A stretch of 59,310 bases of DNA, taken from IMG/VR virus record IMGVR_UViG_3300048834_000244, positions 1 through 59,310 of that record. One strand, given 5' to 3'. The notes beneath the pieces are model-generated. The model had not been told where the DNA came from, searched no databases, and was given only the letters and a program-made list of their open reading frames with translations. The first letter of the stretch is position 1. The number at the start of each line of letters is the position of its first letter. This stretch comes from a virus. Its lineage: Duplodnaviria; Caudoviricetes. Shown here in pieces: positions 1 through 59,310 of this stretch. Both the position numbers and the translations under genes were made by a program.

Positions 1-285
1 GATGGTGAGGGTGGTTTTGTCGGTGGCATCTATCGCATGGCGCGAGAGATCGAAAGCCTACGCGCGTCCTCCGCCGCGAAAGACGCAGAGATAGCAGCCC
101 TCAAGAAGGAAGCGGCTGATGTCGTGAGGCCGTTTGCGAAGGCAGGCGAGCTATTCCCCGAACCGCAGTTCGACTTCGAGCAATGCATCTACAATCCTGC
201 GGCCGGCCCGGAATACGCGCTTGGCAGTAGCCACCTCCGAGCTGCCCGTTCCTTCCTCGACAAGTGGGAGGGGCGAGATGGTTGA
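1..285 (+). CDS. 3' part of mosaic accessory protein (allele of 58124-58963), 5'-truncated by window edge
   Basis: Same reading frame and sequence as the N-terminal part of the 58124 ORF (MAREIESLRASSAAKDAEIAALKKE), then a different module, then AARSFLDKWEG. Confidence 0.75.
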   Translation, partial: DGEGGFVGGIYRMAREIESLRASSAAKDAEIAALKKEAADVVRPFAKAGELFPEPQFDFEQCIYNPAAGPEYALGSSHLRAARSFLDKWEGRDG

Positions 286-790
286 GCCGCGCCTCATCGA
301 AGCAAACTGGAACACGAGTGGCGTCCAGTATCACGAATACACCTGCGTCGAGTGCGGGAAGTTGGGTCGAAACACCTATTTCGAGCCGCACCGCACCGAC
401 ATGCTCAACCGACGCCTTTGCTGGCACTGCAACTATTGGCGCGACTTCGAGGCTCGTCTTGAGCGTGACCATACCAGCATGACGATAATTGACGGTCACG
501 TATACGGACCCGGCAGCCGAACTAGCGGCTCATTTCGAGGCATGGCGGGACGGCGGTTCGACATCGAGTACATCCCGCCGTCAATCTATGCTGGCAAGCG
601 CGTGACCACCTTCGATCTGTGGTCCGGCTCGACACTCCCGGAGTATCTTCAGAAGCGGTTCCCGGACACAGCAAAATTCCTTGGCGGTGCAGAGAAGTGT
701 TCGCTCGACGGGGAGATAACGACTTGCTGGAACTCATCAGACCATCGAACGGAGCCGTATCCGCTCCCTCGCACGATAGGAATCAAGTGA
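278..790 (+). CDS. Hypothetical phage protein with two CxxC motifs
   Basis: GGGAGG RBS before ATG 278; CVEC and CWHC motifs; coupled to neighbouring genes. Confidence 0.75.
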   Translation: MVEPRLIEANWNTSGVQYHEYTCVECGKLGRNTYFEPHRTDMLNRRLCWHCNYWRDFEARLERDHTSMTIIDGHVYGPGSRTSGSFRGMAGRRFDIEYIPPSIYAGKRVTTFDLWSGSTLPEYLQKRFPDTAKFLGGAEKCSLDGEITTCWNSSDHRTEPYPLPRTIGIK

Positions 791-1137
791 TGATCGAGGT
801 CCGTCGCGTCGATAGCCTATTCGACGGCAGGCACCGCGCCGGGCGCTATCGCGTCTCGCCGCCTTCGGACCATCCGGCATCGGGTATGACCGTCACAGTT
901 GCCATGGGCGGAGGCGCGTACTCCACCCTCATCAACCCGCAGTCTTTCGAGAACGGCGGGCCAGAATGGGTCATGCGCTACGGCAACCCGGAATCCATCA
1001 GGTACACGGTCGCAGGTCTGCTTGAGGCTTACGACTACCTGCTTTCGGACAACATCAACATGAAAGAGGCAACGAGACGGCTACGCATTCTGCGTGCTGG
1101 CCGGCGCGATCTGGTGAAAGGAGGAGGGAATGGTTGA
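790..1137 (+). CDS. Hypothetical phage protein
   Basis: Start overlaps upstream stop (GTGATG); ends overlapping the RBS and start of the next gene. Confidence 0.7.
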   Translation: MIEVRRVDSLFDGRHRAGRYRVSPPSDHPASGMTVTVAMGGGAYSTLINPQSFENGGPEWVMRYGNPESIRYTVAGLLEAYDYLLSDNINMKEATRRLRILRAGRRDLVKGGGNG

Positions 1138-1582
1138 GCGGTTTGGGCTATTCGAGAACATCGGAGGCATTGGTCTGCGACTTGAGAAAGACGGAGAATG
1201 GGTCCGCCACTCCGACCACCTAGCCATTATCGGACGGATTGAAGACGATCGCACTGACGAGCATGTCCAATGGATGGCCGAACTCTCCGCCCTCAAGAAG
1301 CAGGTAGAGGAACTGACGGCGGAGCGGGATGATGCGCGCCAATATGCCGTTGAGGCCCGCCTTCGAGAGAACCAGGCAGAAGACAGACGCATCTCGGAAT
1401 CCTTTGCCCGCACCAAGGCTGAAGCCGAAGCAGCAGCGCTGCGGAAGGCGCTGGAGTTCTACGCGGATGTCAGCAAATACCCCGCGCCTCTGACGGGCGG
1501 CATGGGCGACCTATGGGCAGACTGCGGCCGGATCGCCCGATCCGCCCTTGCCTCTACCAGGGAGACGAGCGATGCAGGTTGA
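1130..1582 (+). CDS. Mosaic coiled-coil accessory protein (Ea22-like architecture)
   Basis: AGGAGG RBS; contains linker peptides [24 protein letters not shown] and [12 protein letters not shown], shared with the 58124 ORF. Confidence 0.8.
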
Positions 1583-2054
1583 TGAGAAGGCGCTGAAGTA
1601 CGCCTATGACGCCGGCCGCGATTACGTCATGGACATGGACGACCGCACGAAGCAAATGATCCGCGTCTGCGTTCGCGCCTATCTCTCAGCCCTTGGCGAG
1701 CAGAAGCCGATCGCCTTCGTCTCGAAGCGAGTCATTGATGCTCTCGACGTCAACGGCACCGAGATAGTCGACGCTATGCTTTTCCCAAGAGGCACGCTTC
1801 GGCCAACCGAGGCACGCCCCCTCTACGCCTCTCCTCTCCCCGTCATGCCTATCACGGATGAGGACGTGGAGCGCCGGTTCAAACTCGACGACCGTGTCAC
1901 GAAAACCAAGGGCTCGTCATGGACAGGCCGTGTCGTCGGCTTCTACAGCACGACGCTGACGCCCATCGGCTACGCCGTCGAAAGCGAGAATGAACCCGGC
2001 AGCGTCCAGATTTATCCGGAAGCCGCGCTCGACGCCGCTGGCGGGAGGGGATAA
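1572..2054 (+). CDS. dfrB: Fusion protein with C-terminal DfrB (R67, type II dihydrofolate reductase) SH3-like domain
   Basis: [51 protein letters not shown] matches the R67 DHFR core including the VQIY active-site motif; GGAG RBS before ATG 1572. Confidence 0.88.
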
Positions 2055-2233
2055 TGCGATCACTCTGCAACCCTAACCGCTTCCTCCGATCAATCCAGCA
2101 TTGGTATTGGGGAAACCCGCAACCGACACAGGCTTACAAGCGCAGGATAGCGGCTTCGTTCTTCACGAGTACGAACAAAGCACGCCGGAAGGTGCCCAAG
2201 CGGGTATTCACAATACTCAGGAGCCGCCCATGA
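2054..2233 (+). CDS. Small hypothetical protein (59 aa)
   Basis: TAATG and ATGA coupling at both ends; below the ORF-track cutoff. Confidence 0.5.
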   Translation: MRSLCNPNRFLRSIQHWYWGNPQPTQAYKRRIAASFFTSTNKARRKVPKRVFTILRSRP

Positions 2234-2481
2234 CGCCGGCTGAGATCATAGCGCGGGCAACGTCTGAGGCATTCGAGCGCGTCGCGCAATGGCACGACAA
2301 GAACGCGCGCCTGTGTCTTGAAGTGTCGAGAGACGATCCGCGCCTCAATGCCGATGACAGGCGTAGGGCTTTCGAGGCTCACCGTCATCATGCAGCGAGC
2401 GCGGCGGCCATCCGGAACAAACTCTCGGACGAACGCCGGGCCGCCATCCGAGCCCTCGCCGATGGAGGCGGAAGTGAGTAG
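2230..2481 (+). CDS. Hypothetical phage protein
   Basis: AGGAG RBS, ATG 2230 (MTPAEIIARA). Confidence 0.65.
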   Translation: MTPAEIIARATSEAFERVAQWHDKNARLCLEVSRDDPRLNADDRRRAFEAHRHHAASAAAIRNKLSDERRAAIRALADGGGSE

Positions 2482-2659
2482 GGCGCTGCCGCTCAAGCAG
2501 GGGCAAATCATCGCACTCTGCAAGGGCGCGAAGAAGGCCGGGCACGTCCCGGTCGTGGAAATCGACGGGGTTCGCGTGCTGCTTGTCCCCGCTAATCACG
2601 ATATCCTCAAGTCGGCCGAAATCAAACGAGTTGACGAGAAGGGTAAGGGCTACCTCTGA
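2474..2659 (+). CDS. Putative excisionase / recombination directionality factor
   Basis: Small basic ORF with GTG start and GGAGG RBS, directly upstream of and coupled to the integrase; positional inference. Confidence 0.55.
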   Translation: MSRALPLKQGQIIALCKGAKKAGHVPVVEIDGVRVLLVPANHDILKSAEIKRVDEKGKGYL

Positions 2660-3747
2660 TGGAGGACATGCCGCGCCCACGGAAGCCCTATATCCAGAAG
2701 GAGGTCACTCGCCACGGCAAGATCGTGTGGTACTTCCGGCGAGGCAAGGAGCCGCGTGTCCGCCTGCCCGGAGCGTTTGGGTCGAAGGACTTCAATGAGG
2801 CCTACGCTGCCGCATTTGCTGGTTTAGAGCCAAAGCCACGTGTTTTCGCGCCGCAGCCGTCTCTCCGCTGGCTGGTTGACCGATACTACGAAAGCCCGAG
2901 ATTCAACGCGCTCCGCCCGAATACCCAGCGGAACTACAGGCTGGAGCTGGAGCGCGTCTGCAAAACCGGCGGCTCGCTCAATTTTGCGAAGATCGATACT
3001 GACGATATCCGCGCCGGCATGATGCGGCGCGAGAATCGCCCTCATATGGTCGCCGAATACGTCAAGGCCATGCGCGCCCTGTTCCGTTTCGCCAAAGACA
3101 GCAAATGGATCGGCGCGAATCCGACCGAAGACATCACGTCGGTGCACGTGAAAACGGCGGGCTACCACACATGGACCGTCGAGGAAGTCGAGAGATATCA
3201 GGCGAAGCATCCTGTCGGCACGCAAGCCCGGCTTGCTCTCGACATCATGCTCTATACGGGTCTGAGACGTGGCGATGCGATCACTCTCGGCCGCCAGCAT
3301 GTTCGCGGCGGAACAATCAGCATTCGGGCCGGGAAGAACGGTGCGGAAATCGTGCTCCCCATCCTCCCGCCCCTTGCCGCATCCATTGAGGCCACGAAGA
3401 CAGGCGACATGGTGTTCCTGGTGAACACGCGAGGGCGCCCGTGGAAGAATATCAGCTTCGGTTACTGGTTCGCCGCACGGTGCGAGGAAGCCAAGGTTCC
3501 CGGACGCGCGCATGGGTTGCGGAAGGCCGGCGCAACCATCGCGGCGAACAACGGGGCGACGCCATTTGAGCTGACCGCGATGTACGGATGGTCCTCAACG
3601 AAGGTCGCCGAAATCTACACTCAGAAGGCCGACAAAGTGCGTCTGGCGGAACGCGCCGCGAACAAGCTATACCCGCACCCGGCCAAAGGTGCGGGGAATG
3701 CACCGCCGAAACCATTGAAAATAAAGGCCTCTCGGCAGCGGCATTAA
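2659..3747 (+). CDS. int: Tyrosine recombinase / phage integrase
   Basis: TGLRRGD (R), AHGLRK (HxxR), YGW and EIYT catalytic motifs; N-terminal arm-binding-like region. Confidence 0.95.
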   Translation: MEDMPRPRKPYIQKEVTRHGKIVWYFRRGKEPRVRLPGAFGSKDFNEAYAAAFAGLEPKPRVFAPQPSLRWLVDRYYESPRFNALRPNTQRNYRLELERVCKTGGSLNFAKIDTDDIRAGMMRRENRPHMVAEYVKAMRALFRFAKDSKWIGANPTEDITSVHVKTAGYHTWTVEEVERYQAKHPVGTQARLALDIMLYTGLRRGDAITLGRQHVRGGTISIRAGKNGAEIVLPILPPLAASIEATKTGDMVFLVNTRGRPWKNISFGYWFAARCEEAKVPGRAHGLRKAGATIAANNGATPFELTAMYGWSSTKVAEIYTQKADKVRLAERAANKLYPHPAKGAGNAPPKPLKIKASRQRH

Positions 3748-42416: not shown

Positions 42417-43129
42417 ATCCGTGGGTCCGGCGCCAACCGCCGATCCATCGCCTTCGGGATCGACGCCAAATGGATGCGGCTCACGATTTCGCGCTCTTTT
42501 TTCGCCAAGCTGTTCGAGACCGCCCGGAACCAGTTACCGCCCCCGGCCTTCACTTCGCCGGCCCACAGGTCGAGCGATAGCAATTCCGCCTCCAGCGACA
42601 GATGGGCGTAGGATGATCGCCACTGGTTCAAATCCTTGCCAGTCAGCTTGATCGTTTGCCCGCTGAATGCGTACCGATCATCCCCGACGAAGCCGGCGTC
42701 AGCCGGTTCTTGGTTGATGATATTCTCTGTCTTCTCAGAACTATCTTCTAATTCTGGTTCTGGTTCTGTATGGTCGAACCGTGGAGATTCTATCTCCTTG
42801 ATTTTGTTAGGCCTGCTTCTGTTTTCACGTTGTTTATCTTGAAGTTTCGTGAGAGTTTCGATCTCCGAAAGTGCGCGATAATTCGTCAGAAACTCTCCGA
42901 TCACCACAAGCTTACCGGCCTGGATCAGCGTTTCGCGAACAGCTTTCCACTTTCGGACCGAGCATCCAAGAAGCCCGGAAAGGTAGCGTGGATCGTCTGG
43001 AAGATTGCCCGCCTGCATGTAGATCAGGTCGAGAATTACGCGATACGCGCACTTCACCTCGAATGGCATCCCGATTGTGCCTTCGATGAAATCGCGAGGG
43101 TACGCTTTGTAGTAAGGGAGTCCGTTCAT
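42413..43129 (-). CDS. Replication initiator-like protein (DUF1376/YdaU)
   Basis: LPYYKAYPRDFIEGT..AYRVILDLIY N-terminal motif. Confidence 0.8.
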   Translation of the reverse strand: MNGLPYYKAYPRDFIEGTIGMPFEVKCAYRVILDLIYMQAGNLPDDPRYLSGLLGCSVRKWKAVRETLIQAGKLVVIGEFLTNYRALSEIETLTKLQDKQRENRSRPNKIKEIESPRFDHTEPEPELEDSSEKTENIINQEPADAGFVGDDRYAFSGQTIKLTGKDLNQWRSSYAHLSLEAELLSLDLWAGEVKAGGGNWFRAVSNSLAKKEREIVSRIHLASIPKAMDRRLAPDPRI

Positions 43130-43317
43130 CTTACCTCGCTCCAGTAGCTTTCAGGCAGAGAGGCGACCGCCTTGCCTACCTCGTCCCAGTCAACTTCGTT
43201 GCACTCACAATCGAGCGGAGACACGCCATTCGTTCGCAAGATGAACAAATGGTCTCTCAGCGCCTGCCGCCCTTCTGGCGTCGTCGGCAATCTCATGATC
43301 GTAGGTCGCTGCGTCAT
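43126..43317 (-). CDS. Hypothetical protein
   Basis: ATGA-coupled; AAGGAG RBS. Confidence 0.6.
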   Translation of the reverse strand: MTQRPTIMRLPTTPEGRQALRDHLFILRTNGVSPLDCECNEVDWDEVGKAVASLPESYWSEVR

Positions 43318-43613
43318 GGCTTCGCTTGCTCCTTGCCAACTATCGCCAGCGGCCGATCAAGAGGGTCGCCAGATGAGAAATTGAGGAAGGTTCGCCATGC
43401 GCGACGAGCCTTGAGCCCGTCGTGAAAGTCGCCAGTGTGGTGTGCCCGCTCCTTCGCAACAAGGAACGCTTCCCACGCCTCGCGAGCCCGCTCGTTGATG
43501 TCGATGATGTCGGCGCTCAATGCCGTTCTCCACAGATTGCGGAAACGCGGCCTCTCACATACGACGCCATAGAATTCCTGGGGTGCAATTCGTGTCTTCC
43601 AGCCAGTTTCCAC
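43314..43613 (-). CDS. Hypothetical protein (start uncertain)
   Basis: In-operon ORF. Confidence 0.5.
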   Translation of the reverse strand: METGWKTRIAPQEFYGVVCERPRFRNLWRTALSADIIDINERAREAWEAFLVAKERAHHTGDFHDGLKARRAWRTFLNFSSGDPLDRPLAIVGKEQAKP

Positions 43614-43638
43614 AGGCTGTGAACAACGCGGAGGATCA

Positions 43639-44013
43639 TCACCGAACTACCTCCACATCAATGCCCTTGAGCACGCGCATCATCTTGCGCTTGAGCTTGA
43701 AGGCCTCGGTTTCGGGCGCACCCTTTACGTCTATGACGCGCAAGCGGCCCTGCTCATGGTCGAAGAATGCAGCGTCCGCGACGTAGACGCAGATCACCTC
43801 CCCGGTGGGCCCCAGGAGCGGAAACCGCTTCTGCAATTCGAGGCCGCCTATCCTGCCGGCCTTCTCAAGCTGGATCAGTTCCTCGCAGTAGGCAGCCTCG
43901 CGCTTGGACGCGTACCGCCGTCCGTCCACCACAATGGGTTCGTTTCGGAATTTCTTCGGCTTCTCAGTCTTTGACTTGCCAGCCCGGTATTCGGCGGCGG
44001 ACATGCGGGTCAT
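43639..44013 (-). CDS. DUF1064-family PD-(D/E)xK nuclease
   Basis: SKREA, YVADA and IDVKG motifs. Confidence 0.85.
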   Translation of the reverse strand: MTRMSAAEYRAGKSKTEKPKKFRNEPIVVDGRRYASKREAAYCEELIQLEKAGRIGGLELQKRFPLLGPTGEVICVYVADAAFFDHEQGRLRVIDVKGAPETEAFKLKRKMMRVLKGIDVEVVR

Positions 44014-44225
44014 GCGAGTTGCGCCTCCCGCTTCGTCGTCTTCGTCGCGAGGGCCGACTTCGCCCCGCGACTGGTGTTCTTTCCGAGATTTGGAATCCAC
44101 CCCGGCGGGGCCATGGTGACGGCCCAATCGCCGGGCTTCAGAGGATAGCCGGGGACCATCGTCCAGCCGTCCGCAATGCGGGCGGAAAAGAGCTTGAGCG
44201 GAACGAGTTCTATCGAGAGCGTCAT
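44010..44225 (-). CDS. Hypothetical protein
   Basis: Coupled on both sides. Confidence 0.55.
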   Translation of the reverse strand: MTLSIELVPLKLFSARIADGWTMVPGYPLKPGDWAVTMAPPGWIPNLGKNTSRGAKSALATKTTKREAQLA

Positions 44226-44533
44226 CAGTAGCCCCGATCTGGAACGTAGAGGCAAATGGAACGGATGGCGTCGATCACTCCGCCGGGTGTGCATTGATGA
44301 AAGAACTCGTCCTTGGAGAGCTTTATGCGCACGTCGCTGTACGGGATGATCTCGCCCGTCAGCTTGATGCGATACCCAACCGGGCCTTCCTCCACTTCGC
44401 TGCCGGCGAGTTGCCTACAGTCCTGATTGGAGCAGCACTCCCATCCATAGCGCCAGCCTGTCGGCGCTTCGTGGGCCATCACAGGCAGCACAACCGCCGC
44501 CGAAAGGGCTAAGGAGGTGAGCGCGCGGATCAT
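44225..44533 (-). CDS. Secreted Cys-rich hypothetical protein
   Basis: Signal peptide; HEAPTGWRY..CC..DC motif. Confidence 0.75.
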   Translation of the reverse strand: MIRALTSLALSAAVVLPVMAHEAPTGWRYGWECCSNQDCRQLAGSEVEEGPVGYRIKLTGEIIPYSDVRIKLSKDEFFHQCTPGGVIDAIRSICLYVPDRGY

Positions 44534-45312
44534 GCGGCACTCCCAAAGATGTCTGCTTGTTTGGCTTCGGGATTGCGCGACGCCTCAACGAACATGTCGG
44601 GCTGGGCATAGGCCTTTTCGATGCGCTTGCAGGCGATGTCGAAATAGCCCTCGTCGATCTCGATGCCGATGAATGAACAACCGGCGCGTACGGCAGCAAC
44701 GCCGGTCGTGCCGGAGCCCATGTAAGGATCAAGAACGACGCCGCTGCAGACGCCAGCCTGCGCGAGCGTCCAATTCATGACCATCTCGGGCTTTTGTGTC
44801 GGATGAAGTCTTTGTTGGCCCGCCGTCACCTCGTGACGCGCACCGACTCCGACGCAGAGACCATCCCACAGAAGACGTAAAATACGCAGTGGCCGTGGGT
44901 CAGCGTCATTGATCCATGCTGCTTCGCCGTCGCCCTGATCCCGGACTTTTCCGGTCGGCACCTTGTCCCAAACCAGCCATGACCCTGCCGGTAACCGGTC
45001 AGCAAATTTGTGAGCTCCCCACATTACGATGCGCGGAGCCACCTGCAGCCATGGCTTAGGGTCAAAGGGCTTATCGTCGCCATGCACGGGCCGATGCACT
45101 TTAGGGCGCACGACCAGCGTCTTTCCGTTTCGCTGGACAACGGCATTGTTGCGTTTTCCGCCCGAGTGGAACGTATTGACCTTGTAGTTCTGCCCATACG
45201 GCGGGTCCGTCACCACCGCATCGACCTCGCCGAGCAGCGGCAGCACCTGAAGGCAATCGCCGAGATACAATTCGCAGGAGCCGATCACTTCCTTTCTACT
45301 CCACGCCGTCAT
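44530..45312 (-). CDS. DNA amino-methyltransferase (beta class, N4-C/N6-A)
   Basis: VTDPPY before HPTQKP and DPYMGSGTT. Confidence 0.92.
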   Translation of the reverse strand: MTAWSRKEVIGSCELYLGDCLQVLPLLGEVDAVVTDPPYGQNYKVNTFHSGGKRNNAVVQRNGKTLVVRPKVHRPVHGDDKPFDPKPWLQVAPRIVMWGAHKFADRLPAGSWLVWDKVPTGKVRDQGDGEAAWINDADPRPLRILRLLWDGLCVGVGARHEVTAGQQRLHPTQKPEMVMNWTLAQAGVCSGVVLDPYMGSGTTGVAAVRAGCSFIGIEIDEGYFDIACKRIEKAYAQPDMFVEASRNPEAKQADIFGSAA

Positions 45313-46034
45313 GATGCGACCCCTGACAGCGGACGCTTGTGCAAACGTTCGCAAGTACGGCAGACACGAGAGCCCGTCTTGTTCACCCGCAAATTGTCCC
45401 CGGAAAGGGGGTGCCCTCTAAGGCAATGCGTCAATTCTTTCCGGCGCTTAGCCGCTGCGACTATGCCTCGCTCTCTGACGTGCTCGGGAACGGGTCTTGA
45501 CTTTCCGCGGATCGATGCCTGGTAACAGGCGCGAGAGCAGAACCTGTTGTGTCCCTTGATGATATCGCGGCGCTTTCGCCAGAATTGATCTCCGCACTGT
45601 TGGCAAGAGAAGGTGTCCCCCGAGCGGATCGCCTCTGCCACTCTCCGACGACGCTCCTCCGTCCACTCTGTGCCGGAGCCCCCCAGACCTCCATCGGTGA
45701 CGTTCAGCAGATCATCGTATTGAGAGACCCAGTAACGTTCGCGCTCAGCCCTAGTCGCAGGAATATCTGCGCACTTCTCCAGCACGATTACGCTGAAACC
45801 ACTGCCCCTTTCGGAGATCCAGCGATGCACCGGAAGCGGGCTTCCCGCACGCGCGTCTAGGATATGGCCGCGCATTCGAAGCCGAAGGGACTGACTAGTG
45901 CTCCCAATATAAACCGGAGAGCCGCCATCAAAGGGCGCAATGGCGTATATGACGGCAGTACGCTCATCCCCGACGAACCTGATGCGGACGCCGGAGCAGT
46001 CGCCGATGGTGACGTCTTTGCGGATCGGGCTCAT
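45309..46034 (-). CDS. GIY-YIG homing endonuclease
   Basis: VIY...VYIGST..RMRGH..E..LLN core; C-terminal HCLRGH..CRTC motif. Confidence 0.85.
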   Translation of the reverse strand: MSPIRKDVTIGDCSGVRIRFVGDERTAVIYAIAPFDGGSPVYIGSTSQSLRLRMRGHILDARAGSPLPVHRWISERGSGFSVIVLEKCADIPATRAERERYWVSQYDDLLNVTDGGLGGSGTEWTEERRRRVAEAIRSGDTFSCQQCGDQFWRKRRDIIKGHNRFCSRACYQASIRGKSRPVPEHVRERGIVAAAKRRKELTHCLRGHPLSGDNLRVNKTGSRVCRTCERLHKRPLSGVAS

Positions 46035-46039
46035 CGAAG

Positions 46040-46396
46040 CTACTCAGCCGCCTCCTTGAGTTTCTCGGGTTCGGCTTCGACCGCATCCTGATCGCCAGAG
46101 GCTGCTAGGTTGCGCTCAAGTTCCGCACCGATATCGACCGCCGACTTTTCAATGAGTTCGATTGACGGCCGCTCCAGCGCGTCGATCTGGGCCTTTCTGC
46201 CTTCAATCGAGAGCAGAAGCCGACGCTTCTGGTCCTCCAGCCGGAGGATGCTGCCCTCGGTCATGGTGAGTTCTTCATTCAGGCTGCTGAGCGCCGTGAT
46301 GGCCTGATCGCGCTCGCGCTGATCGACGGGCTTCGGCGGTACGGTCCTGATAGCCGCCGGCTGCGGCGCTGGCTTCTTTCGGAAGAATGAGAGCAT
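46040..46396 (-). CDS. Coiled-coil hypothetical protein
   Basis: GAGGG RBS; ends EAAE. Confidence 0.65.
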   Translation of the reverse strand: MLSFFRKKPAPQPAAIRTVPPKPVDQRERDQAITALSSLNEELTMTEGSILRLEDQKRRLLLSIEGRKAQIDALERPSIELIEKSAVDIGAELERNLAASGDQDAVEAEPEKLKEAAE

Positions 46397-46407
46397 GGGT
46401 GTCGCCC

Positions 46408-46806
46408 TCAATTCGTCAGTTCAGTTGCATCACCTCGGAAATCGATGTCCGGGATGATGGTCTGAGGTTTGAAGATCACGCGGTAATGGTATGTGCTGGC
46501 CCTGTTCGGCTCCAACTGCTCTACGAAGTACGTCACGTTGTCGGAGAGCCCCAGGAAGTGCTTCTTGAAGGCGTTCGGCCCGACTTTGCAGGTGATCGTG
46601 AGTTGGCCGGCGCTGTCGCTGTTGCCAAGCGAGCAAAGCCCCTCGACGGTAAGTATGTAGGCGCCGGTAATGCCGTTGTAGAAAACGACGCGGCGGTTCA
46701 CCTCGAACATGCCAGCGGCCTTGGATAGATTACGCGACGCCACATCCGCATCAGTACAGCCGGCAAGGATGGATAAGCCCATCAAGGCGAAAACTGCTTT
46801 CTTCAT
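46408..46806 (-). CDS. Conserved phage lipoprotein
   Basis: LAGC lipobox; ADVASRNLSKAA..FE..RRVVFYNGIT motif. Confidence 0.85.
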   Translation of the reverse strand: MKKAVFALMGLSILAGCTDADVASRNLSKAAGMFEVNRRVVFYNGITGAYILTVEGLCSLGNSDSAGQLTITCKVGPNAFKKHFLGLSDNVTYFVEQLEPNRASTYHYRVIFKPQTIIPDIDFRGDATELTN

Positions 46807-47183
46807 CTCATCTCTCTCGCTTCCTTTTTCGCCGCAATGCGCGCAGCCAAAGCCGGGCGGCCATGGTTTTCGTGGTAGCCATGGTCCATCTGGAATTTTC
46901 TGCGCGCTCGTGCCGCTTCCTCGAACGAGCCGAAAAATCCAAGGTGACGGTTCTTCCCACCATGGCAGCATTGCGCGTACCAGCGGCCTGTTCTGCTATG
47001 TCTGTAGACGCCAGGAGCCCCTGAGCTATTGTCTGCGCGGAGCGCCCGGTTTATCTGCTCAAGCGCCGGGCCATTTCCGCCCAGCACTCTGACGGCCGAA
47101 GCCATTTCGGAAACAATCAACTCGCTACGCATTTCCGTCTCGCGCCGTGAGATTTCCCGGTCGCGCCCCTGATTTGGTCTCAT
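46803..47183 (-). CDS. Chimeric protein containing an AP2-like DNA-binding domain
   Basis: NSSGAPGV...WYAQ...HLGFFGSFEEAARAR is an HNH-AP2 C-terminus joined to an unrelated N-terminus. Confidence 0.55.
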   Translation of the reverse strand: MRPNQGRDREISRRETEMRSELIVSEMASAVRVLGGNGPALEQINRALRADNSSGAPGVYRHSRTGRWYAQCCHGGKNRHLGFFGSFEEAARARRKFQMDHGYHENHGRPALAARIAAKKEAREMR

Positions 47184-47611
47184 CTGGAATCCGTTCTCTC
47201 GTAGGTTCATCGGCATGACGAACCGCAGAGCGAAAGGACCGGAACAGCTTGGAAAGATCGCGCGTCGCGTCGTGGCAGACTTGAGACACGCGGGAAGACC
47301 AGCGGTTGAGAGAACCGCTCAAATTGCAGATGCGCCCAAATCCGCAGGGGCGCGCGGGCCGGTCGATGATGTCCCTACCGTAGGCCGGCCCGCAATTGTT
47401 GCGAAGGATGCAGAACGAGAATGAGCCCGCACGGACGCGGATGGCTGATTGCCGCGAATGACAATGCTCCATCGTCACACCCCCGCGTTTCTGGCGATCT
47501 GCTCAAGCCAGTTCGGCTGAGCCGGGATGAGGTCGAGCGCGTCGACGTGCTCATGCGACTGATCGATGAGAGGACGGCGAAACAGGGATAGGAGGCGCGC
47601 GAGGAATGGCA

Positions 47612-47980
47612 TCAGGCGGCGCCCCTCTTGGCAAAGGCTACGACATTCCCGGATCGCTTCGGCTGAGGCTTAGACTTGCGCGGTTTTGGCGGCGTGCTGC
47701 CAAAATCTCTGGCGTAGCCAAGCTTCGGAAGGGGTCCGCCAACGAGCCAGATTTTGACTTGTGCAATTCGATCCGTGGCGAACGGAGAGTTAGTTTCTTG
47801 CCCAATGGCCTCAGCCTTGCGTTTCCCAGCCGTCTCCGTGAGAATCCAGTACTGGTCCCAATATGTTTCTTCGCCGGTCTCGTTGTTCACTCTATTCGAA
47901 TAGGCATGAACAAAGCCGATGTACTTCTGACGCGGCTTTGGCAGACGCGGCGGAAACATTCGACGGAGGAACCACCTCAT
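47612..47980 (-). CDS. Hypothetical protein
   Basis: ATGA-coupled. Confidence 0.65.
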   Translation of the reverse strand: MRWFLRRMFPPRLPKPRQKYIGFVHAYSNRVNNETGEETYWDQYWILTETAGKRKAEAIGQETNSPFATDRIAQVKIWLVGGPLPKLGYARDFGSTPPKPRKSKPQPKRSGNVVAFAKRGAA

Positions 47981-48750: not shown

Positions 48751-48896
48751 CTACGCCGCCTCCCGCACAGCCTTCCGGCGGCGCAATTCAGCGTCGACCT
48801 CGGCTTTCGTCCGCCTGACGATCAGGCCATGCTCGGGGTCGAGAAGATGATAGGTGCCCTCTTCGGTCCAGACCGCTCCGCAGCGCAGGTGCTTGC

Positions 48897-49112
48897 TCAT
48901 TGCGCCACCCCTTCTGGTTGAGGGGTGAACATTGTCGCCAGATCAGGGCGCAGATCACGAGGTGGAATGCCAGTGAAGTCTGCCACGGCCGCAACGCGGT
49001 CAGTAGGAACTTGGTCCCACATCGAAATTGCGGAGGGGGAGATGTTAAGGCGAGCCGCCAACGCGGATTTTCGCCCCCTCTCTCGGTTCAGGTATTCGAG
49101 CAACTTCTCCAT
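48897..49112 (-). CDS. cro: Cro-like repressor (YdaS family)
   Basis: LAARLNISPSAISMW..VP..LRPDL; divergent from cI. Confidence 0.9.
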   Translation of the reverse strand: MEKLLEYLNRERGRKSALAARLNISPSAISMWDQVPTDRVAAVADFTGIPPRDLRPDLATMFTPQPEGVAQ

Positions 49113-49119
49113 ACAGCGT

Positions 49120-49165
49120 AATTTAAGTCACGCTGAATTTTCAGTCAAGCTTGATTTTTCAGTGG
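49120..49165 (-). promoter_or_regulatory. PR promoter / OR operators
   Basis: TTGACT-17-TAAATT on the minus strand (49148-49120); TTCAG/CTGAA half-sites; near-identical to PL. Confidence 0.8.
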
Positions 49166-50527: not shown

Positions 50528-50757
50528 GCGCGCTTAGCATCACACGCGACGAGGACGCTCTGCTTCAACTCCCATGGGAACAGCGCGTGCAGGCCTCGAT
50601 CGATTTCGATCGCGCCATTTCCGAGTGGAGCATCGCCCGTCATGGCCGCAAGCGCGGCACTTGGGACTGGCGCTTTGATATGCACCGCGCCCGTCGCGCT
50701 TGGCGTCACTACAAAATGGCCGTCCGCAAGGCGAGGGCCGGGAGGATCGCGGCATGA
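50524..50757 (+). CDS. Hypothetical protein
   Basis: ATGA-coupled; GGAGAGG RBS. Confidence 0.6.
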   Translation: MSALSITRDEDALLQLPWEQRVQASIDFDRAISEWSIARHGRKRGTWDWRFDMHRARRAWRHYKMAVRKARAGRIAA

Positions 50758-51425
50758 CGCAGTACCTGTATCTCGATATCGAGACGATTCCGACGACGAA
50801 TGAGCAGCACATCGCTGAAATCGCCGCGTCGATCACTTGCCCCGGCAATATCACCAAGCCTGAAAGCATCGCAGCTTGGGAGGTTGAGAAGAAGCCAAAG
50901 CTGGTCGAGGAAGCTGTTGCGAAAACCTCCTTCTCCGGCGCCTACGGCAAGGTGTGCTGCGTCGGCTGGGCTTGGGACAACTTCGAAGCGCGATCTACGA
51001 TAGGGAATGACGAGCGTGATGTGATCCAGTCGTCGTTCGACAGGATGAGCCAGAATACCGCGCGCGTCCCCATCGTGACGATTGTCGGCCATTACGTCGC
51101 AAACTTCGACCTTCGCTTCCTGATGCAACGCGCGATCGTTCTCGGCGTCACTCTCCCTGCGTGGTTTCCCCGCGATCCGAAGCCATGGAGCCGTGAGGTC
51201 TTCGACACAATGACGGCATGGGCTGGCGCGAAGGACAGCATCAGTCTCGACAATCTCTGCAAGGTTCTGGGCATCCCCGGCAAAGATGGCGTGGACGGCT
51301 CGATGATCGCTGGCATGTGGCAGCGCGGCGAGATGGACGAGATCGCCGCCTACTGTCGGAGCGACGTGGATCGCGTTCGGAACGTGCATCGCAAGATGCA
51401 GGTGGCTTTTGGAGAAGCGGCATGA
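50754..51425 (+). CDS. 3'-5' exonuclease (DEDD, PolB-exo-like)
   Basis: LDIET, GHY..FD and YCRSDV ExoI-III motifs. Confidence 0.9.
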   Translation: MTQYLYLDIETIPTTNEQHIAEIAASITCPGNITKPESIAAWEVEKKPKLVEEAVAKTSFSGAYGKVCCVGWAWDNFEARSTIGNDERDVIQSSFDRMSQNTARVPIVTIVGHYVANFDLRFLMQRAIVLGVTLPAWFPRDPKPWSREVFDTMTAWAGAKDSISLDNLCKVLGIPGKDGVDGSMIAGMWQRGEMDEIAAYCRSDVDRVRNVHRKMQVAFGEAA

Positions 51426-52656: not shown

Positions 52657-52659
52657 ACC

Positions 52660-53079
52660 ATGGCCCGCAAACCAGAAAAGCCAGTCTATTCGTTTGTCCG
52701 TCGAGGCGACGCCCTCGTACCGGAGATGGAATACGATGTCCGCGCATTGGATGGCGTGAAGCACGGCCAGCGCGTCCGCGTAGACATCAAGGAATGGCGC
52801 AATCTCGACAGGCTCAAAGCCTATTGGGCAATGCTCCATGAGGTCGTGGCCGCGACCGGTGCAAATGGCCTGTCTGCCGAGCGCCTGCACGAAGTGGCGA
52901 AACTTCAGAACGGCTGCGTGGATGTGATCCTGCTCCCGACTGGAATGCCTGTCGCCATCCCTGCGTCGATAGCGCTCGACAAGATGTCCGAGCCGGAATT
53001 CATCGCGTTCTTCCAGAAGGTCGAGGCGTGGCTTGCGCAAACCTACGGCTATGTGCCGGAAGCGCGGAGGGCGGCATGA
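52660..53079 (+). CDS. NinB/DUF1367-like recombination accessory protein
   Basis: RN..YWAML..PASIALDKMSEPEF. Confidence 0.65.
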   Translation: MARKPEKPVYSFVRRGDALVPEMEYDVRALDGVKHGQRVRVDIKEWRNLDRLKAYWAMLHEVVAATGANGLSAERLHEVAKLQNGCVDVILLPTGMPVAIPASIALDKMSEPEFIAFFQKVEAWLAQTYGYVPEARRAA

Positions 53080-56415: not shown

Positions 56416-57381
56416 ATGTTGTTCCGCGACGTGAAAATCATCCCGAGCGCTGAAGGAAATGTCAGCAAATACGTCTTTACGGCCGAAACGGGCGTCGCCG
56501 AAGCCGTCCTATACCGGTATCCCGATTATCAGACGCGCACTGTCATATGTTGCTCTACCATGAGCGGATGCCCTGTCGGATGCCGCTTCTGCGGCGCGGG
56601 CGACTACTTTGTCCGCTCTATGTCGGCCGAAGAAATCGTTGCGCAGGCAGACCGCTGCATCGCCGACACAGGCATTGACGCCGCCGAGATGAAGCGGCTC
56701 CAGATCATGTTCATGAGCATGGGTGAACCACTGTTGAACCCGAAGGGGATGCAGGGCGCGCTGCGGGAACTCTATGCGAAGTATCCGAACGCCGCGTTAC
56801 TCATCTCCACCATCGGCCCGGACATCGACTACGATTGGGTGCGCGACATAAGCGTCGAGATACCGACAGTCGGTCTTCAGTTTTCGGTCCACAAGTCGAG
56901 CGACGCTGAACGTGATGTTCTGATCCCGTTCAAGAAGAAGTTGCCGCTGAATTTCATCGCCTATGAGGGCGAACGGTGGTTTCGCGAGACGGGGAGAAAG
57001 CCGTTCTTCAACTACTGCGCGGGCGACGACAACTCGTTGCCGCACGACGCGGATCGGCTGCGGGAACGCTTCGATCCGACCGTCTGGAATGCGACCGTAA
57101 GCGTCATCTGCGAGCGTAACGAGGGTATGCCGGCGAAGAACGATCACCAGATCGAACTAGCGGCCAACTTCGCCTCACTACTTGTCGAACGCGGCTACGA
57201 CGTTCGCGTGTTCGATCCCGCTGGCCAGGACGATATAGGCGGCGGTTGCGGCCAGCTTTGGTTCGTCCAGCAGTGGATGCGTGATCACCCCGAACTAGCG
57301 CGACCGAGCATCGGCCACGGACTGCCCTCCGTTCATACGCCCGCCGGCCGCTCCACCCTCGCAGGAGGTAGCGATGCGTAG
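56416..57381 (+). CDS. rlmN: RlmN/Cfr-family radical SAM RNA methyltransferase-like protein
   Basis: CCSTMSGCPVGCRFC (CxxxCxxC), MSMGEP, LQFSVH and DIGGGCGQL motifs. Confidence 0.88.
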   Translation: MLFRDVKIIPSAEGNVSKYVFTAETGVAEAVLYRYPDYQTRTVICCSTMSGCPVGCRFCGAGDYFVRSMSAEEIVAQADRCIADTGIDAAEMKRLQIMFMSMGEPLLNPKGMQGALRELYAKYPNAALLISTIGPDIDYDWVRDISVEIPTVGLQFSVHKSSDAERDVLIPFKKKLPLNFIAYEGERWFRETGRKPFFNYCAGDDNSLPHDADRLRERFDPTVWNATVSVICERNEGMPAKNDHQIELAANFASLLVERGYDVRVFDPAGQDDIGGGCGQLWFVQQWMRDHPELARPSIGHGLPSVHTPAGRSTLAGGSDA

Positions 57382-57604
57382 GCTGACGGAGGCTGAACTC
57401 AACGAACTCGCGATGCAAGCTCTCCGAGAGCGCTGCCGTGAGGTCTACCAGGCGCTCGGCCGCAACGCGATGTTGCGTCAAGGCGACCCGGTTGAAACAA
57501 TCTTCGCGTTTGCCAAAGAACTCATTTCTGAGCGCGAATATGTAATCGGCTTCAATGACGGGTGGGACGAAGGCCGCGCCAAGCTGGCGGAGGAGCGGGG
57601 ATGA
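57374..57604 (+). CDS. Hypothetical protein
   Basis: AGGAGGT RBS. Confidence 0.7.
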   Translation: MRRLTEAELNELAMQALRERCREVYQALGRNAMLRQGDPVETIFAFAKELISEREYVIGFNDGWDEGRAKLAEERG

Positions 57605-57798
57605 TCCGGCTTGTTGTCAGAATAGACGACGCGGCAATGGCTGCTCATGTCGGCGGATCGCCGCAAACGACATACCGCACATTCGACATCGAACATGCCG
57701 AGATCGAAGCCCTGCTTCGCGGCGGCGGCAGCAACGACAGAAACGACTTCAGCTACCGCACTCTGGTCGGCGCTGAGATTATTTCGGAGGCATCATGA
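57601..57798 (+). CDS. Hypothetical protein
   Basis: GGAGGAG RBS; ATGA-coupled. Confidence 0.7.
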   Translation: MIRLVVRIDDAAMAAHVGGSPQTTYRTFDIEHAEIEALLRGGGSNDRNDFSYRTLVGAEIISEAS

Positions 57799-58127
57799 CC
57801 ATCTCCCCCGAAGCATTGGAGAAGGCGCGGGCGATAGCGCAGTCCATTTGCAACAACACCCGAACGCTCATCGGCGAAAATGATATCATCCTCATCGCCG
57901 CCGCCCTACAGGCAGAACGTGACGCGAACATCGCTCTTCACGCCGCCCTCGAATCGCTGGTGGCGCGCATTGCCGAGCTTGAGGCGGGGTTGAAAGATAC
58001 AGCGGAAGCGCTCCGTAGTCGCCTTACAGCGGACGAACTGAACGCCCCGCACCATAAACCCTACGAGCACCCGCTGTCCGCTTATGACCGCGCCGCCCGT
58101 CTCTTGAGCAAGGATCGCCAGCCATGA
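57795..58127 (+). CDS. Mosaic coiled-coil hypothetical protein
   Basis: GGAGG RBS; ARIAELEA linker-like segment. Confidence 0.7.
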   Translation: MTISPEALEKARAIAQSICNNTRTLIGENDIILIAAALQAERDANIALHAALESLVARIAELEAGLKDTAEALRSRLTADELNAPHHKPYEHPLSAYDRAARLLSKDRQP

Positions 58128-58963
58128 CCACCGCACAGACAGAAGCGCGGGCGATTGGCGACCCGTATATGCGAATTGTTGATTTTTTCGACCGGGATGA
58201 AACGGCAGGAAGTTTCCTGCGTGAAGATGGTGAGGGTGGTTTTGTCGGTGGCATCTATCGCATGGCGCGAGAGATCGAAAGCCTACGCGCGTCCTCCGCC
58301 GCCAAAGACGCAGAGATAGCAGCCCTCAAGAAGGAAGCGGCTGATGTCGTGAGGCCGTTTGCAAAAATCGCTGACGGTGAACCAGACAACGCCGTTTTCC
58401 ATACAGGCCACAAAGTATTTAAGGCCGCCCGTTCCTTCCTCGACAAGTGGGAGGGCGAGATGTCTGACCTTATCGAAAAACTGCGACTCGCCTGCGATGA
58501 TCCTATGTGGGCCGATCATGTCGAAATGCCGAAGAAGCTTTTGCGGCATGCTGTTGATTATCTCGATGCCCTCAAGAAGCAGGTAGAGGAACTGACGGCG
58601 GAGATGGATGCGGCAACAATTTCCGGATGGAAGGCTGCCATCGACTGCGTGTCATATGCAGCAGCCAATACCTACGGGCCGAGAGTTGATCCTGCCGCCG
58701 TAGCTAAGGCGCGCGATGATCTTGTGCAGGAATTGCTTACGGCTTCTCCTGCCGATTATCTCGATTGCTGTTGGAAAGACGCGCAGGATGCAATCCGGGC
58801 CGAAGCCGAAGCAGCAGCGCTGCGGAAGGCGCTGATAGAGGCGCGCGACGTCGTTGACGCCGTTACCGGACATAATCAACCCGACCGCCCGTGGTCTCGG
58901 CAAGTGCGAGACCGCATAGACGCCGCCCTTGCCTCTACCAAGGAGACGAGCGATGCAGGTTGA
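58124..58963 (+). CDS. Mosaic Ea22-like accessory protein (allele B)
   Basis: Combines in one frame the linker peptides found in ORFs 1-285 and 1130-1582. Confidence 0.8.
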   Translation: MTTAQTEARAIGDPYMRIVDFFDRDETAGSFLREDGEGGFVGGIYRMAREIESLRASSAAKDAEIAALKKEAADVVRPFAKIADGEPDNAVFHTGHKVFKAARSFLDKWEGEMSDLIEKLRLACDDPMWADHVEMPKKLLRHAVDYLDALKKQVEELTAEMDAATISGWKAAIDCVSYAAANTYGPRVDPAAVAKARDDLVQELLTASPADYLDCCWKDAQDAIRAEAEAAALRKALIEARDVVDAVTGHNQPDRPWSRQVRDRIDAALASTKETSDAG

Positions 58964-59310
58964 TGAGAAGGCGCTGGCGGCTGCGGTAGATGCAGCAGAA
59001 GCGCACCACGAAAAGCCTCTGCGTGAGTGGGAAGTGACAGCGATCCGCGCCGCCATCGCCGCCTATCTCGCCGCCCTTGGCGAGCGGGAGCCGGTGGTGT
59101 GGCAACGCCTGCATCCCGTTGCAGGCTGGCAGAATGTAGACGAAGCCGACATAGAGCATTATCGCAGCTACGGGCAAGAAATCCGCCCCCTCTACGCCTC
59201 TCCTCTCCCCGTCATGCCTATCACGGATGAGGACGTGGAGCGCCGGTTCAAACTCGACGACCGTGTCACGAAAACCAAGGGCTCGTCATGGACAGGCCGT
59301 GTCGTCGGCT
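58226..59310. repeat. Allele B of the mosaic locus
   Basis: See 1-1941; the last 127 nt are identical to 1815-1941. Confidence 0.95.
58953..59310 (+). CDS. dfrB: DfrB-domain fusion protein, allele B, truncated by window end
   Basis: [21 protein letters not shown]...[42 protein letters not shown]; not in the ORF track (no stop). Confidence 0.85.
   Translation, partial: MQVDEKALAAAVDAAEAHHEKPLREWEVTAIRAAIAAYLAALGEREPVVWQRLHPVAGWQNVDEADIEHYRSYGQEIRPLYASPLPVMPITDEDVERRFKLDDRVTKTKGSSWTGRVVG

What the first reader, a model, noticed from the sequence alone, without database searches (positions are those of the whole stretch)
1..1941. Linker-guided module shuffling: two alleles share seven short conserved linkers around wholly different modules
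Seen: 1-1941 and 58226-59310 are collinear but match only in blocks of 33-137 nt (1-137, 244-280, 1289-1324, 1421-1453, 1542-1595, 1676-1709, 1815-1941). All six intervening segments look unrelated and differ in length; one holds about 1 kb including two extra genes in A versus about 105 nt in B. Most linkers lie inside ORFs, keep the frame, and encode coiled-coil or spacer peptides ([24 protein letters not shown], AYLxALGE, PLYASP); two contain an RBS plus ATG. Known: lambdoid boundary sequences and Ea22-like mosaics, and short-homology recombination by phage annealing proteins. Inference: a combinatorial, sub-genic cassette system in which fixed linkers act as swap points to build new multi-domain early proteins, perhaps driven by the exonuclease and annealing protein of the same operon.
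Basis: partly seen in the sequence, partly recalled or inferred. Interest (0 to 1): 0.85.

Follow-up and report, generated by a model that had tools for sequence, protein, structure and literature searches.

The report
Swappable modules in phage early genes
The two ends of this phage contig are two co-existing versions of one stretch of early genes, built from interchangeable gene and sub-gene pieces joined by short conserved sequences; this is an unusually clear case of the "linker" model of phage mosaic evolution.

Summary
All seven collinear blocks exist, separated by segments with no nucleotide similarity.

The "two alleles" are not two loci of one genome. The window is a whole viral contig. 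Its ends are two haplotypes of one locus, joined when the assembler went once round a circular phage genome. A second, independent contig ends the same way, with the same 127-nt overlap.

The linkers recur in 7 other contigs, in about 90 typed proteins and in metagenomes from 11 studies, each time with different modules between them. Modules assort freely: 32 distinct combinations in 33 proteins and 23 in 28. About half the linkers are gene junctions (stop, ribosome site, start). The rest are in-frame peptide linkers.

A 65.7-kb prophage-like contig and a complete 69-kb viral contig share only this early region with the window.

Linkers are no better conserved at synonymous sites than shared modules. 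No annealing protein was identified. The best reading is homologous recombination at short shared sequences (29-36 nt exact runs). That is the known boundary-sequence or Ea22-type mosaic, in an unusually dense, sub-genic form.

The parts
1..285 (+). Haplotype A, 3' part of gene 1. Its 5' end is cut by the contig start. Holds linker 1 (core about 84-118).
237..287 (+). Linker 2. A gene junction: stop of gene 1 at 283-285, a ribosome site, and the ATG of the next gene at 278.
   Evidence: joints 283->796 and 287->1277
278..790 (+). A-only gene, 170 aa, Cys-rich, no family hit. An optional cassette.
790..1137 (+). A-only gene, 115 aa, no family hit. An optional cassette. A weak relative lies in Paracoccus phage Shpa.
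1130..1582 (+). Haplotype A, gene with linkers 3, 4 and 5 (150 aa).
1277..1331 (+). Linker 3, in frame. A 32-nt core is invariant in 8 of 8 DNA sequences.
1417..1453 (+). Linker 4, in frame.
   Evidence: joints 1329/1331->1421
1534..1595 (+). Linker 5. A gene junction where the stop of one gene overlaps the start of the next.
   Evidence: (joints 1539->2022 and 1575->1676)
1572..2054 (+). Haplotype A, gene with linkers 5-8 (160 aa). Its C-terminal module (about 1875-2021) is an R67/DfrB-type DHFR domain.
   Evidence: (PF06442, 77.5 bits)
1658..1709 (+). Linker 6, in frame (core 1673-1706).
   Evidence: joints 1575->1676 and 1709->1815
1815..1873 (+). Linker 7 proper, in frame and Pro-rich. 1874-1941 is the start of the shared DHFR-type module.
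2022..2057 (+). Linker 8: the C-terminal end and stop of the gene.
   Evidence: joints 1539->2022, 2050->2228, 2057->2224
2219..2261 (+). Linker 9: junction and start of the 2230-2481 gene. Further swap points lie near 2255-2258 and 2443-2445.
2659..3747 (+). Tyrosine integrase. It marks the end of the early-left operon.
   Evidence: phrog_1, 2.9e-43
58124..58963 (+). Haplotype B, a 279-aa ORF spanning linkers 0-5. It is two genes fused, because one G is missing from the G-run of linker 2. The 7 other sequences have the extra G and split genes.
58953..59310 (+). Haplotype B, gene with linkers 5-7. Its 3' end is cut by the contig end, 127 nt into sequence identical to 1815-1941.
57341..58157 (+). 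Upstream continuation of the mosaic. Conserved islands at 57341-57392, 57568-57830, 57785-57835, 57893-57925 and 58086-58157, most of them spanning gene junctions.
50700..51425 (+). PolB-exo-like 3'-5' exonuclease.
   Evidence: PF10108, 73.5 bits
51973..52656 (+). 227-aa ORF of unknown family. Only a weak lead to Sak-type annealing proteins.
52660..53079 (+). NinB/Orf-like recombination mediator.
   Evidence: phrog_319, 3.5e-16

Best explanation
The window is one assembly path through a circular temperate phage genome that was present in the sample in at least two versions. The path starts in version A of the early accessory region, goes once round, and re-enters the same region through version B. 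It stops 127 nt after B rejoins sequence already used. On this reading the genome is 58,225 nt with A (1-58225) and 57,369 nt with B (1942-59310).

The region lies between the recombination and modification genes and the integrase. It is a chain of alternative cassettes: whole small genes, and parts of three genes. Short conserved sequences separate the cassettes. About half of these are gene junctions (stop, ribosome site, start). The rest are in-frame peptide linkers.

All versions share only these short sequences, so homologous recombination between co-infecting phages or prophages can cross over only there. Each crossover swaps the module beside it and keeps the reading frame. This recombination is inferred, not shown. 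Repeated swaps leave each linker as an isolated island of near-identity between unrelated modules.

The proteins look like helical or coiled scaffolds carrying small variable domains, as in lambda Ea22. This is a weak inference. Their function is unknown; by position they are probably early host-interaction or lysogeny-decision proteins.
For: Wrap and haplotypes:
- The record is a single viral contig.
- Both terminal genes are cut by the contig ends, and a direct circular join would stop the last gene at once.
- In L001 an A-type allele is preceded by sequence 98.5% identical to what precedes B (58103-58362).
- Proteins with B-type modules continue into the module that follows in A (P0046 and P0053).
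- An independent 69,276-nt viral contig, G403, ends in the same way. Its last 127 nt are 100% identical to an internal stretch, and 132-, 47- and 32-nt collinear blocks are separated by unrelated sequence.

Linkers recur with other modules:
- 7 further contigs carry them (L001, L006, L007, L039, L040, L041, L043).
- Contigs of 4 metagenomes from 4 studies break from the A sequence at the linker edges. Joints: 137->244, 283->796, 287->1277, 1329/1331->1421, 1539->2022, 1575->1676, 1709->1815 and more.
- 20 runs from 11 studies hold 29-74% of the sampled words of 1-2700.

Free assortment:
- 33 proteins with linkers 3 and 4 show 12 head types, 8 types in slot 3-4 and 8 in slot 4-5. That gives 32 distinct combinations, with four-gamete quartets of 6, 9 and 5.
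- 28 proteins of the next gene show 6, 7 and 6 types and 23 combinations, with quartets of 2, 12 and 4.
- Gene 1 shows four gametes in P0056, P0113, P0058 and P0094.
- Four gametes also hold when sequences known only from Logan are left out. The four are A5, P0026 (ncbi), P0052 (jgi) and P0053 (jgi, lgn, ena).

Homologous rather than site-specific exchange:
- The linkers are unlike one another, apart from 12-nt and 10-nt coincidences.
- They have no other copies in the genome.
- Exact A/B runs of 29-36 nt sit at the minimal pairing length quoted in PMC3945230: 23-27 bp for Red-beta and 31-34 bp for RecA (passages read).
- The operon encodes a NinB/Orf-like mediator and an exonuclease.

Recent exchange among otherwise unlike phages:
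- The 65.7-kb contig G001:C9 shares 13 blocks with the window, all within 56168-59310 and 68-2486.
- G403 (CheckV 100% complete) matches nothing in 2500-42499 and matches 19 blocks in 42500-59310.
Against: - Every sequence comes from a metagenome or a MAG. No cultured phage or long read phases the modules.
- No linker match turned up in 50,697 phage records. One search found none, and one search found only DHFR-module and A3-gene matches.
- Only 1 of 401 genomes of the Mesorhizobium-MAG family carries the linkers.
- Logan contigs are built from 31-mers (recalled). They could be chimeric across linkers of 31 nt or more.
- Recombination at the linkers has not been observed directly.
- No annealing protein was identified.
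- The contig start fits the wrap less neatly than the end. It lies 77 nt, not 127 nt, before the first A/B mismatch.
- Some variants (P0159, P0163) join different linkers at very short identities, so not every junction needs a full linker.
- The structure models are poor (pLDDT 50.1 and 57.7), so the 'helical scaffold' picture is weak.
Confidence: 0.72

Rival explanations
1. A selected cassette system. The linkers are maintained at the DNA level as dedicated swap points (evolved evolvability), possibly served by the phage's own recombination genes. Diverse phages can then build new early proteins from a common module pool.
For: - The array is very dense and regular: at least 10 linkers in about 2.5 kb, with 6-12 alternatives per slot.
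- Linkers are 90-100% identical in genomes with no other nucleotide similarity.
- Two independent phage backbones are each polymorphic at this region within one sample.
- Recombination-related genes sit in the same operon.
Against: - Third-position identity of linkers (93.2%) is no higher than that of shared modules (92.2%), so there is no sign of extra DNA-level constraint.
- Linkers encode conserved peptides or ribosome-site/start signals, and that alone explains why they are kept.
- Linkers share no common motif.
- No dedicated enzyme was found.
Confidence: 0.13
2. Illegitimate, homology-independent recombination followed by selection for working proteins (Hendrix model). Junctions pile up at domain borders, and the linkers are conserved only because the protein needs them.
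For: [quoted passage not shown]
- Deletion variants P0159 and P0163 join different linkers with almost no homology.
Against: - Breakpoints in independent contigs and in 4 metagenomes fall at the same few nucleotides, at the edges of 30-50-nt blocks of near-identity.
- Random joints filtered by protein function would not preserve synonymous sites at 93% in genomes that are otherwise unalignable.
Confidence: 0.08
3. The apparent assortment is produced by chimeric metagenome assembly across the short shared linkers. Real phages carry only a few fixed haplotypes.
For: - Several variants co-occur in single samples (tables 3 and 8).
- Many proteins come only from Logan contigs.
- The window itself shows that assemblers walk from one haplotype into another.
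Against: - The alternative modules next to each linker are real in any case.
- Four-gamete sets persist in sequences from NCBI, JGI and ENA assemblies.
- Those assemblies mostly use k-mers longer than most linkers (a recalled property of the assemblers).
- Contigs of 20-69 kb carry distinct combinations.
Confidence: 0.05
4. Ordinary divergence of homologous genes, in which conserved motifs stay alignable and the rest has drifted beyond recognition.
For: - Four head types of the third gene are detectably homologous (7 of 36 pairs).
- Two A/B segments have equal or near-equal length (88/88 and 62/65 nt).
Against: - Identity is bimodal. It is about 95% in blocks, including third positions, against none between them.
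- Segment lengths differ up to tenfold, and some segments contain whole extra genes.
- Module types recur unchanged in different combinations.
- 0 of 64 type pairs in the second family are detectably homologous.
Confidence: 0.02

Closest known systems
Short conserved boundary ('linker') sequences between modules of lambdoid phages. This is the modular theory of Susskind and Botstein, with the HK620 analysis of Clark et al. Both are recalled; they are cited as refs 21 and 22 in PMC3029335 (passages read).
   Same: Short conserved sequences lie at the borders of non-homologous segments in collinear genomes. They are proposed as sites of homologous recombination that swap modules. Many lie at gene junctions.
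   Different: Here nearly every border in about 4.5 kb has such a sequence. Half of them lie inside genes and keep the frame. Each slot has 6-12 alternatives. PMC3029335 says such sequences cannot be found at most mosaic boundaries.
Ea22 and the exo-xis region of lambda and Stx phages (PMC10834534; abstract and passages read).
   Same: These are early genes between the recombination genes and int. Ea22 has a variable N-terminus, a central coiled coil and unrelated C-terminal domains, and is described as mosaic. Relatives of the window's proteins reach PF13935 at the threshold (P0014 27.2 bits, P0025 27.8 bits, cut-off 27).
   Different: The window's own proteins do not hit PF13935. Three Ea22 variants were compared in that paper, against dozens of combinations over about 8 slots here. 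The host group is different: alphaproteobacterial, judging by the MAG titles and phage hits.
gp38 adhesins of T-even phages: hypervariable segments between conserved glycine-rich motifs (PMC3157838; abstract and passages read).
   Same: Conserved short motifs in fixed order separate segments, each with a limited palette of alternatives. Exchanges occur within or near the conserved motifs and give chimeric proteins.
   Different: gp38 is a virion host-range protein of virulent phages, and its motifs form one structural core. Here the proteins are early non-structural proteins of temperate phages. The linkers differ in kind from one another (junctions, helical stretches, a Pro-rich stretch). Whole genes are also swapped.
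Relaxed homologous recombination by phage Rad52-like recombinases (PMC3945230; passages read).
   Same: It explains mosaics of more than 90% identity flanked by short or diverged homology, and reports that small gene fragments are exchanged more often than whole modules. Orf/NinB assists. The minimal pairing lengths are close to the exact runs seen here.
   Different: No Rad52-like, RecT or Erf protein was identified in this phage. Nothing was measured here.
Silent-cassette gene conversion (pilin-type antigenic variation), shufflons and DGRs. All three are recalled.
   Same: They produce combinatorial variation of parts of a protein.
   Different: There are no donor copies of the linkers elsewhere in the genome, and no repeated recombination site. 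No reverse transcriptase or invertase turned up among the ORFs scanned.

Membership tests
Mosaic exchange at short conserved boundary sequences | Short conserved blocks in collinear order flank non-homologous segments. | tested here: met
Mosaic exchange at short conserved boundary sequences | The same borders are reused in independent genomes with different inserts. | tested here: met
Mosaic exchange at short conserved boundary sequences | Modules on either side of a border assort independently. | tested here: met
   (four-gamete sets). Phase rests on short-read assemblies.
Mosaic exchange at short conserved boundary sequences | Crossovers are shown to occur in the borders. | not testable with these tools
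   Needs phage crosses or long-read population data.
Ead/Ea22-like proteins (PF13935) | Pfam match above the gathering score. | tested here: not met
   The window's proteins give no hit. Of the relatives, P0014 and P0025 just pass, while P0009 and P0024 fall below.
Ead/Ea22-like proteins (PF13935) | Early gene placed between the recombination genes and the integrase. | tested here: met
Ead/Ea22-like proteins (PF13935) | Central coiled coil with variable terminal domains. | tested here: inconclusive
   The model is all-helical but has pLDDT 57.7. The variable ends are shown.
Type II (R67/DfrB) dihydrofolate reductase, PF06442 | SH3-like core matching the family, including the active-site stretch. 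| tested here: met
   (77.5 bits, cut-off 25). (PDB 6ny0, 3sfm and 1vie at about 1e-16, with the alignment shown).
Type II (R67/DfrB) dihydrofolate reductase, PF06442 | Tetramer with reductase activity. | not testable with these tools
   Needs an enzyme assay.
Site-specific cassette systems (shufflon, integron-like) | One recombination site repeated at every junction. | tested here: not met
   the linkers share only 12-nt and 10-nt coincidences.
Silent-cassette gene conversion | Donor copies flanked by the same conserved sequences elsewhere in the genome. | tested here: not met
   no further copy of any linker in the 59,310 nt.
Single-strand annealing protein (RecT, Erf, Rad52/Sak) for ORF 51973-52656 | Family match by profile or structure. 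| tested here: not met
   No hit in PHROGs, Pfam, NCBIfam or PDB. The Atlas gives only a lead: score 0.90, in a cluster where 19% carry PF06378.

The most novel reading that the evidence does not exclude
The early accessory region is a population-level diversity generator. An array of conserved junctions and in-frame linkers is shared by otherwise unrelated phages. It lets them draw sub-genic modules from a common pool fast enough that a single phage backbone is polymorphic there within one sample, as seen in two independent contigs. The array would be kept by selection for that ability, to vary early host-takeover or anti-defence proteins.
Probability: 0.15. Interest if true: 0.8.

Novelty: new variant of a known kind. 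Interest (0 to 1): 0.6.

Why it matters
How phage mosaic junctions arise is a long-standing question. One view is homologous exchange at conserved linkers. The other is random illegitimate joining followed by selection. It has been hard to settle because conserved boundary sequences are rarely seen (PMC3029335).

This region has a recognisable linker at almost every junction, inside genes as well as between them. It has many natural alternatives per slot, and two versions sit on one backbone in one sample. That makes the question directly testable by crosses, by recoding single linkers, and by long-read population sequencing.

It also shows how small phage proteins can be assembled from interchangeable domains. 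One of those domains is a DfrB-type dihydrofolate reductase fold, whose origin is itself under study (PMC9835603).

Tried and rejected
Searches that gave little:
- The phage collection had no linker match. One search matched only the DHFR module and the A3 gene.
- Single-protein scans of viral contigs gave 1 relative of 5 stretches. A second gave 4 of 12, and those shared only the DHFR module.
- Exact DNA patterns of linkers 5 and 7 found nothing in viral contigs. Linker 3 found 3 contigs, one of them new.
- Of 401 genomes in the family of the MAG G001, 23 had some match. Only G001 carried the linker set. G163 and G355 had 71-74% matches to module sequence. The other 20 had single weak hits.

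Other negative results:
- Pfam, PHROGs, NCBIfam and PADLOC gave no family for the A-only genes, for the linker-bearing genes (apart from PF06442), or for the 227-aa ORF.
- The two AlphaFold models were too poor for fold searches, so no fold search was run.
- In one search, the last slot of alignment A6 still contained linker-5 residues. Its 11 of 15 'significant' pairs are not interpretable and were dropped.

Readings rejected:
- Tandem duplication within one genome was rejected because both terminal genes are cut by the contig ends and relatives place A and B at one locus.
- A tandem double lysogen of two related phages would give the same picture and is not excluded. It would not change the reading that A and B are alleles.
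- Silent cassettes and a common recombination site were rejected.

What contigs cannot show: parts of 1-2700 without cover in some runs (table 2) are not evidence of absence.

No supplements were opened. The Ea22 variant alignment (Fig. S9 of PMC10834534) and Fig. S5 of PMC3945230 may bear on how unusual this density of junctions is.
Full report
WHAT IS THERE. The window is a complete record: one viral contig of 59,310 nt with 60.4% G+C. It is a temperate phage.
- Structural genes lie on the minus strand from about 4.1 to 47.5 kb.
- A regulatory region lies near 48-49 kb.
- A long plus-strand early operon runs from about 48.9 kb to the contig end and continues from position 1 to the integrase at 2659-3747.
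- The operon encodes an HTH regulator, a PolB-exo-like 3'-5' exonuclease (50700-51425), an HNH endonuclease, an unassigned 227-aa ORF, a NinB/Orf-like recombination mediator (52660-53079), a DNA methyltransferase and a radical-SAM protein.
- The nearest named relatives of individual pieces are phages of Sinorhizobium, Rhizobium, Ochrobactrum and Paracoccus. Two related contigs are titled as an uncultured Mesorhizobium MAG and an uncultured Pseudomonadota MAG.

THE OBSERVATION. Exact runs are 77, 59, 29, 36, 33, 18, 35 and 127 nt. The six segments between them have no nucleotide similarity. Their lengths in A and B are 103/61, 1008/105, 85/187, 88/88, 62/65 and 105/90 nt. Linkers 1, 3, 4, 6 and 7 are read in the same frame in both versions. 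Linkers 2 and 5 are gene junctions. In B, the G-run of linker 2 is one base shorter than in all 7 other sequences, which fuses two genes into a 279-aa ORF.

WHY BOTH VERSIONS ARE ON ONE CONTIG.
- The contig starts in the middle of a gene, exactly where homology to B begins.
- It ends in the middle of a gene, exactly 127 nt after B becomes identical to A.
- Joining the ends directly would terminate that gene at once.
- In L001 an A-type allele follows sequence 98.5% identical to B's upstream flank.
- Proteins with B-type modules carry on into the module that follows in A.

So A and B occupy one locus. The simplest account is an assembly path that went once round a circular genome and re-entered the polymorphic region through the other haplotype. 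An independent, CheckV-complete 69,276-nt contig (G403) ends in just the same way. Its last 127 nt are 100% identical to an internal stretch, and it has three further collinear islands separated by unrelated sequence, one gap being 2,078 nt against 64 nt. The values 127 and 77 are both members of SPAdes' k-mer series (recalled). Why the start shows 77 rather than 127 is unexplained. A tandem double lysogen would look the same and is not excluded.

The linkers are found, in the same order, in 7 other contigs. Examples:
- L007 carries the B module between linkers 3 and 4, followed by the A module after linker 4. It lacks the whole next gene through a joint from about 1539 to 2022.
- L006 carries B modules in slots 2-3 and 4-5 and new modules in slots 3-4, 5-6 and 6-7.
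- L039 mixes A modules with new ones and has about 190 nt inserted inside linker 5.

Contigs of four metagenomes from four studies leave the A sequence precisely at the linker edges. 20 runs from 11 studies of freshwater, wastewater, activated sludge, bioreactor and soil hold part of 1-2700.

PROTEIN-LEVEL ASSORTMENT. The pattern is combinatorial.
- Gene with linkers 3-5: 33 proteins carry linkers 3 and 4, out of those returned. They have 12 head types, 8 slot-3-4 types and 8 slot-4-5 types, in 32 distinct combinations.
- Next gene: 28 of 31 proteins could be typed at all three slots. They show 6, 7 and 6 types in 23 combinations.
- Gene 1: a 20-sequence alignment shows about 7 heads and about 10 slot-1-2 types, counted by eye, with all four gametes for two heads and two modules.

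Four-gamete sets exist between every pair of slots tested, including among sequences from NCBI, JGI and ENA assemblies. An eighth linker (2022-2057, the gene's C-terminal end) and a ninth (2219-2261) were not in the finding. The mosaic also extends upstream, where the islands mostly span gene junctions.

ARE THE MODULES UNRELATED? Mostly, as far as short sequences allow. In the second gene family no pair of types scored above shuffles (0 of 15, 0 of 28, 0 of 21). Among the heads of the third gene 7 of 36 pairs did, so four head types are diverged homologues. One module, the A-type of slot 4-5, is a widespread small C-terminal domain. A profile search found it at the end of proteins of 63-506 aa. 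One C-terminal module of the last gene is a DfrB/R67-type DHFR domain. At least four other modules can take its place.

ARE THE LINKERS SPECIALLY CONSERVED? No. Over six related loci, the linkers are 95.6% identical to the window, and 93.2% at third codon positions. Non-linker shared blocks are 94.9% and 92.2%. Everything that is shared is recently shared. What sets the linkers apart is that all versions share them.

This matters because the genomes are otherwise unlike.
- The 65.7-kb contig G001:C9 shares 13 blocks with the window, all inside this region.
- G403 and G404 match nothing in 2500-42499.

So pieces of this region move among different phage backbones.

MECHANISM. The linkers are not copies of one site, and they have no donor copies elsewhere. 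That rules out shufflon-, integron- or pilin-type schemes. The breakpoints coincide with blocks of near-identity whose exact runs (29-36 nt) match the minimal pairing lengths quoted in PMC3945230. The operon carries an Orf-like mediator and an exonuclease. I therefore infer homologous, possibly 'relaxed', recombination within the linkers. The in-frame, junction-preserving position of the linkers guarantees viable products. Isolated linker islands are what remains after both neighbours have been replaced in turn. The steps shown here are the shared linkers, the reused breakpoints and the assortment. The steps inferred are the recombination pathway, its enzymes and the role of the proteins.

COMPARISON WITH WHAT IS KNOWN.
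- This is the linker or boundary-sequence idea of modular phage evolution. PMC3029335 notes that such sequences are not seen at most boundaries.
- It resembles the mosaic Ea22 proteins of the lambda exo-xis region in position and architecture. Two relatives just reach PF13935, but the window's own proteins do not.
- In logic it resembles the conserved-motif and hypervariable-segment design of T-even gp38.
- It differs in density, in mixing whole-gene and sub-genic swaps, in the number of alternatives per slot, and in being shared by unrelated backbones.

I rate it a new variant of a known kind.

LIMITS. All the data are short-read metagenome assemblies. Phase across linkers is not proven by long reads. 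The source reads could not be mapped. No annealing protein was found.

Noticed in passing
window 1875-2021 (C-terminal part of gene 1572-2054): A DfrB/R67-type dihydrofolate reductase domain (PF06442, 77.5 bits; PDB type II DHFRs at about 1e-16) sits as one of at least five interchangeable C-terminal modules. It lies about 0.6 kb from the integrase and about 5 kb from a DNA methyltransferase. PMC9835603 reports similar contexts for distant DfrB homologues.
   Followed up: partly
window 58450-58459 versus 267-277 and 7 other loci: The G-run in linker 2 is one base shorter in B only. This fuses gene 1 and the next gene into a 279-aa ORF. It could be a real frameshift variant or a homopolymer error.
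   Followed up: partly
G403 (L049/L050): 69150-69276 versus 2258-2384: An independent complete viral contig also ends with a 127-nt exact copy of an internal stretch. Before that come collinear islands of 132, 47 and 32 nt separated by unrelated sequence. This is a second two-haplotype wrap, in a different part of the same operon.
   Followed up: yes
window 1454-1541 (slot 4-5 module, A type): This roughly 30-residue module, with its flanking linkers, is a widespread small C-terminal domain. The profile search matched it at the C-terminus of many proteins of 63-506 aa (180 representatives at E <= 1e-3).
   Followed up: partly
window 56413-57381: A radical-SAM protein (PF04055, 37.7 bits) of unknown role lies in the early operon, just upstream of the mosaic region.
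   Followed up: no
window 51422-51976: An HNH endonuclease (phrog_99, 2.2e-64) is wedged between the exonuclease and the 227-aa ORF. It is possibly a homing element, and its breaks could stimulate local recombination.
   Followed up: no
window 97-108 and 1289-1300; proteins P0159 and P0163: Linkers 1 and 3 share 12 identical nucleotides, and linkers 4 and 5 share 10. Some natural variants join different linkers directly and delete everything between them.
   Followed up: partly
L039 914-1103: About 190 nt are inserted between the two halves of linker 5, that is, between the stop of one gene and the start of the next. Linker 5 therefore acts as two adjacent swap points.
   Followed up: no
window 1-77: The contig begins exactly 77 nt before the first A/B mismatch, which is at position 78. 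It ends exactly 127 nt into re-converged sequence. Both numbers are common assembler k-mer sizes (recalled). The 77 is not explained by a single-k graph.
   Followed up: no
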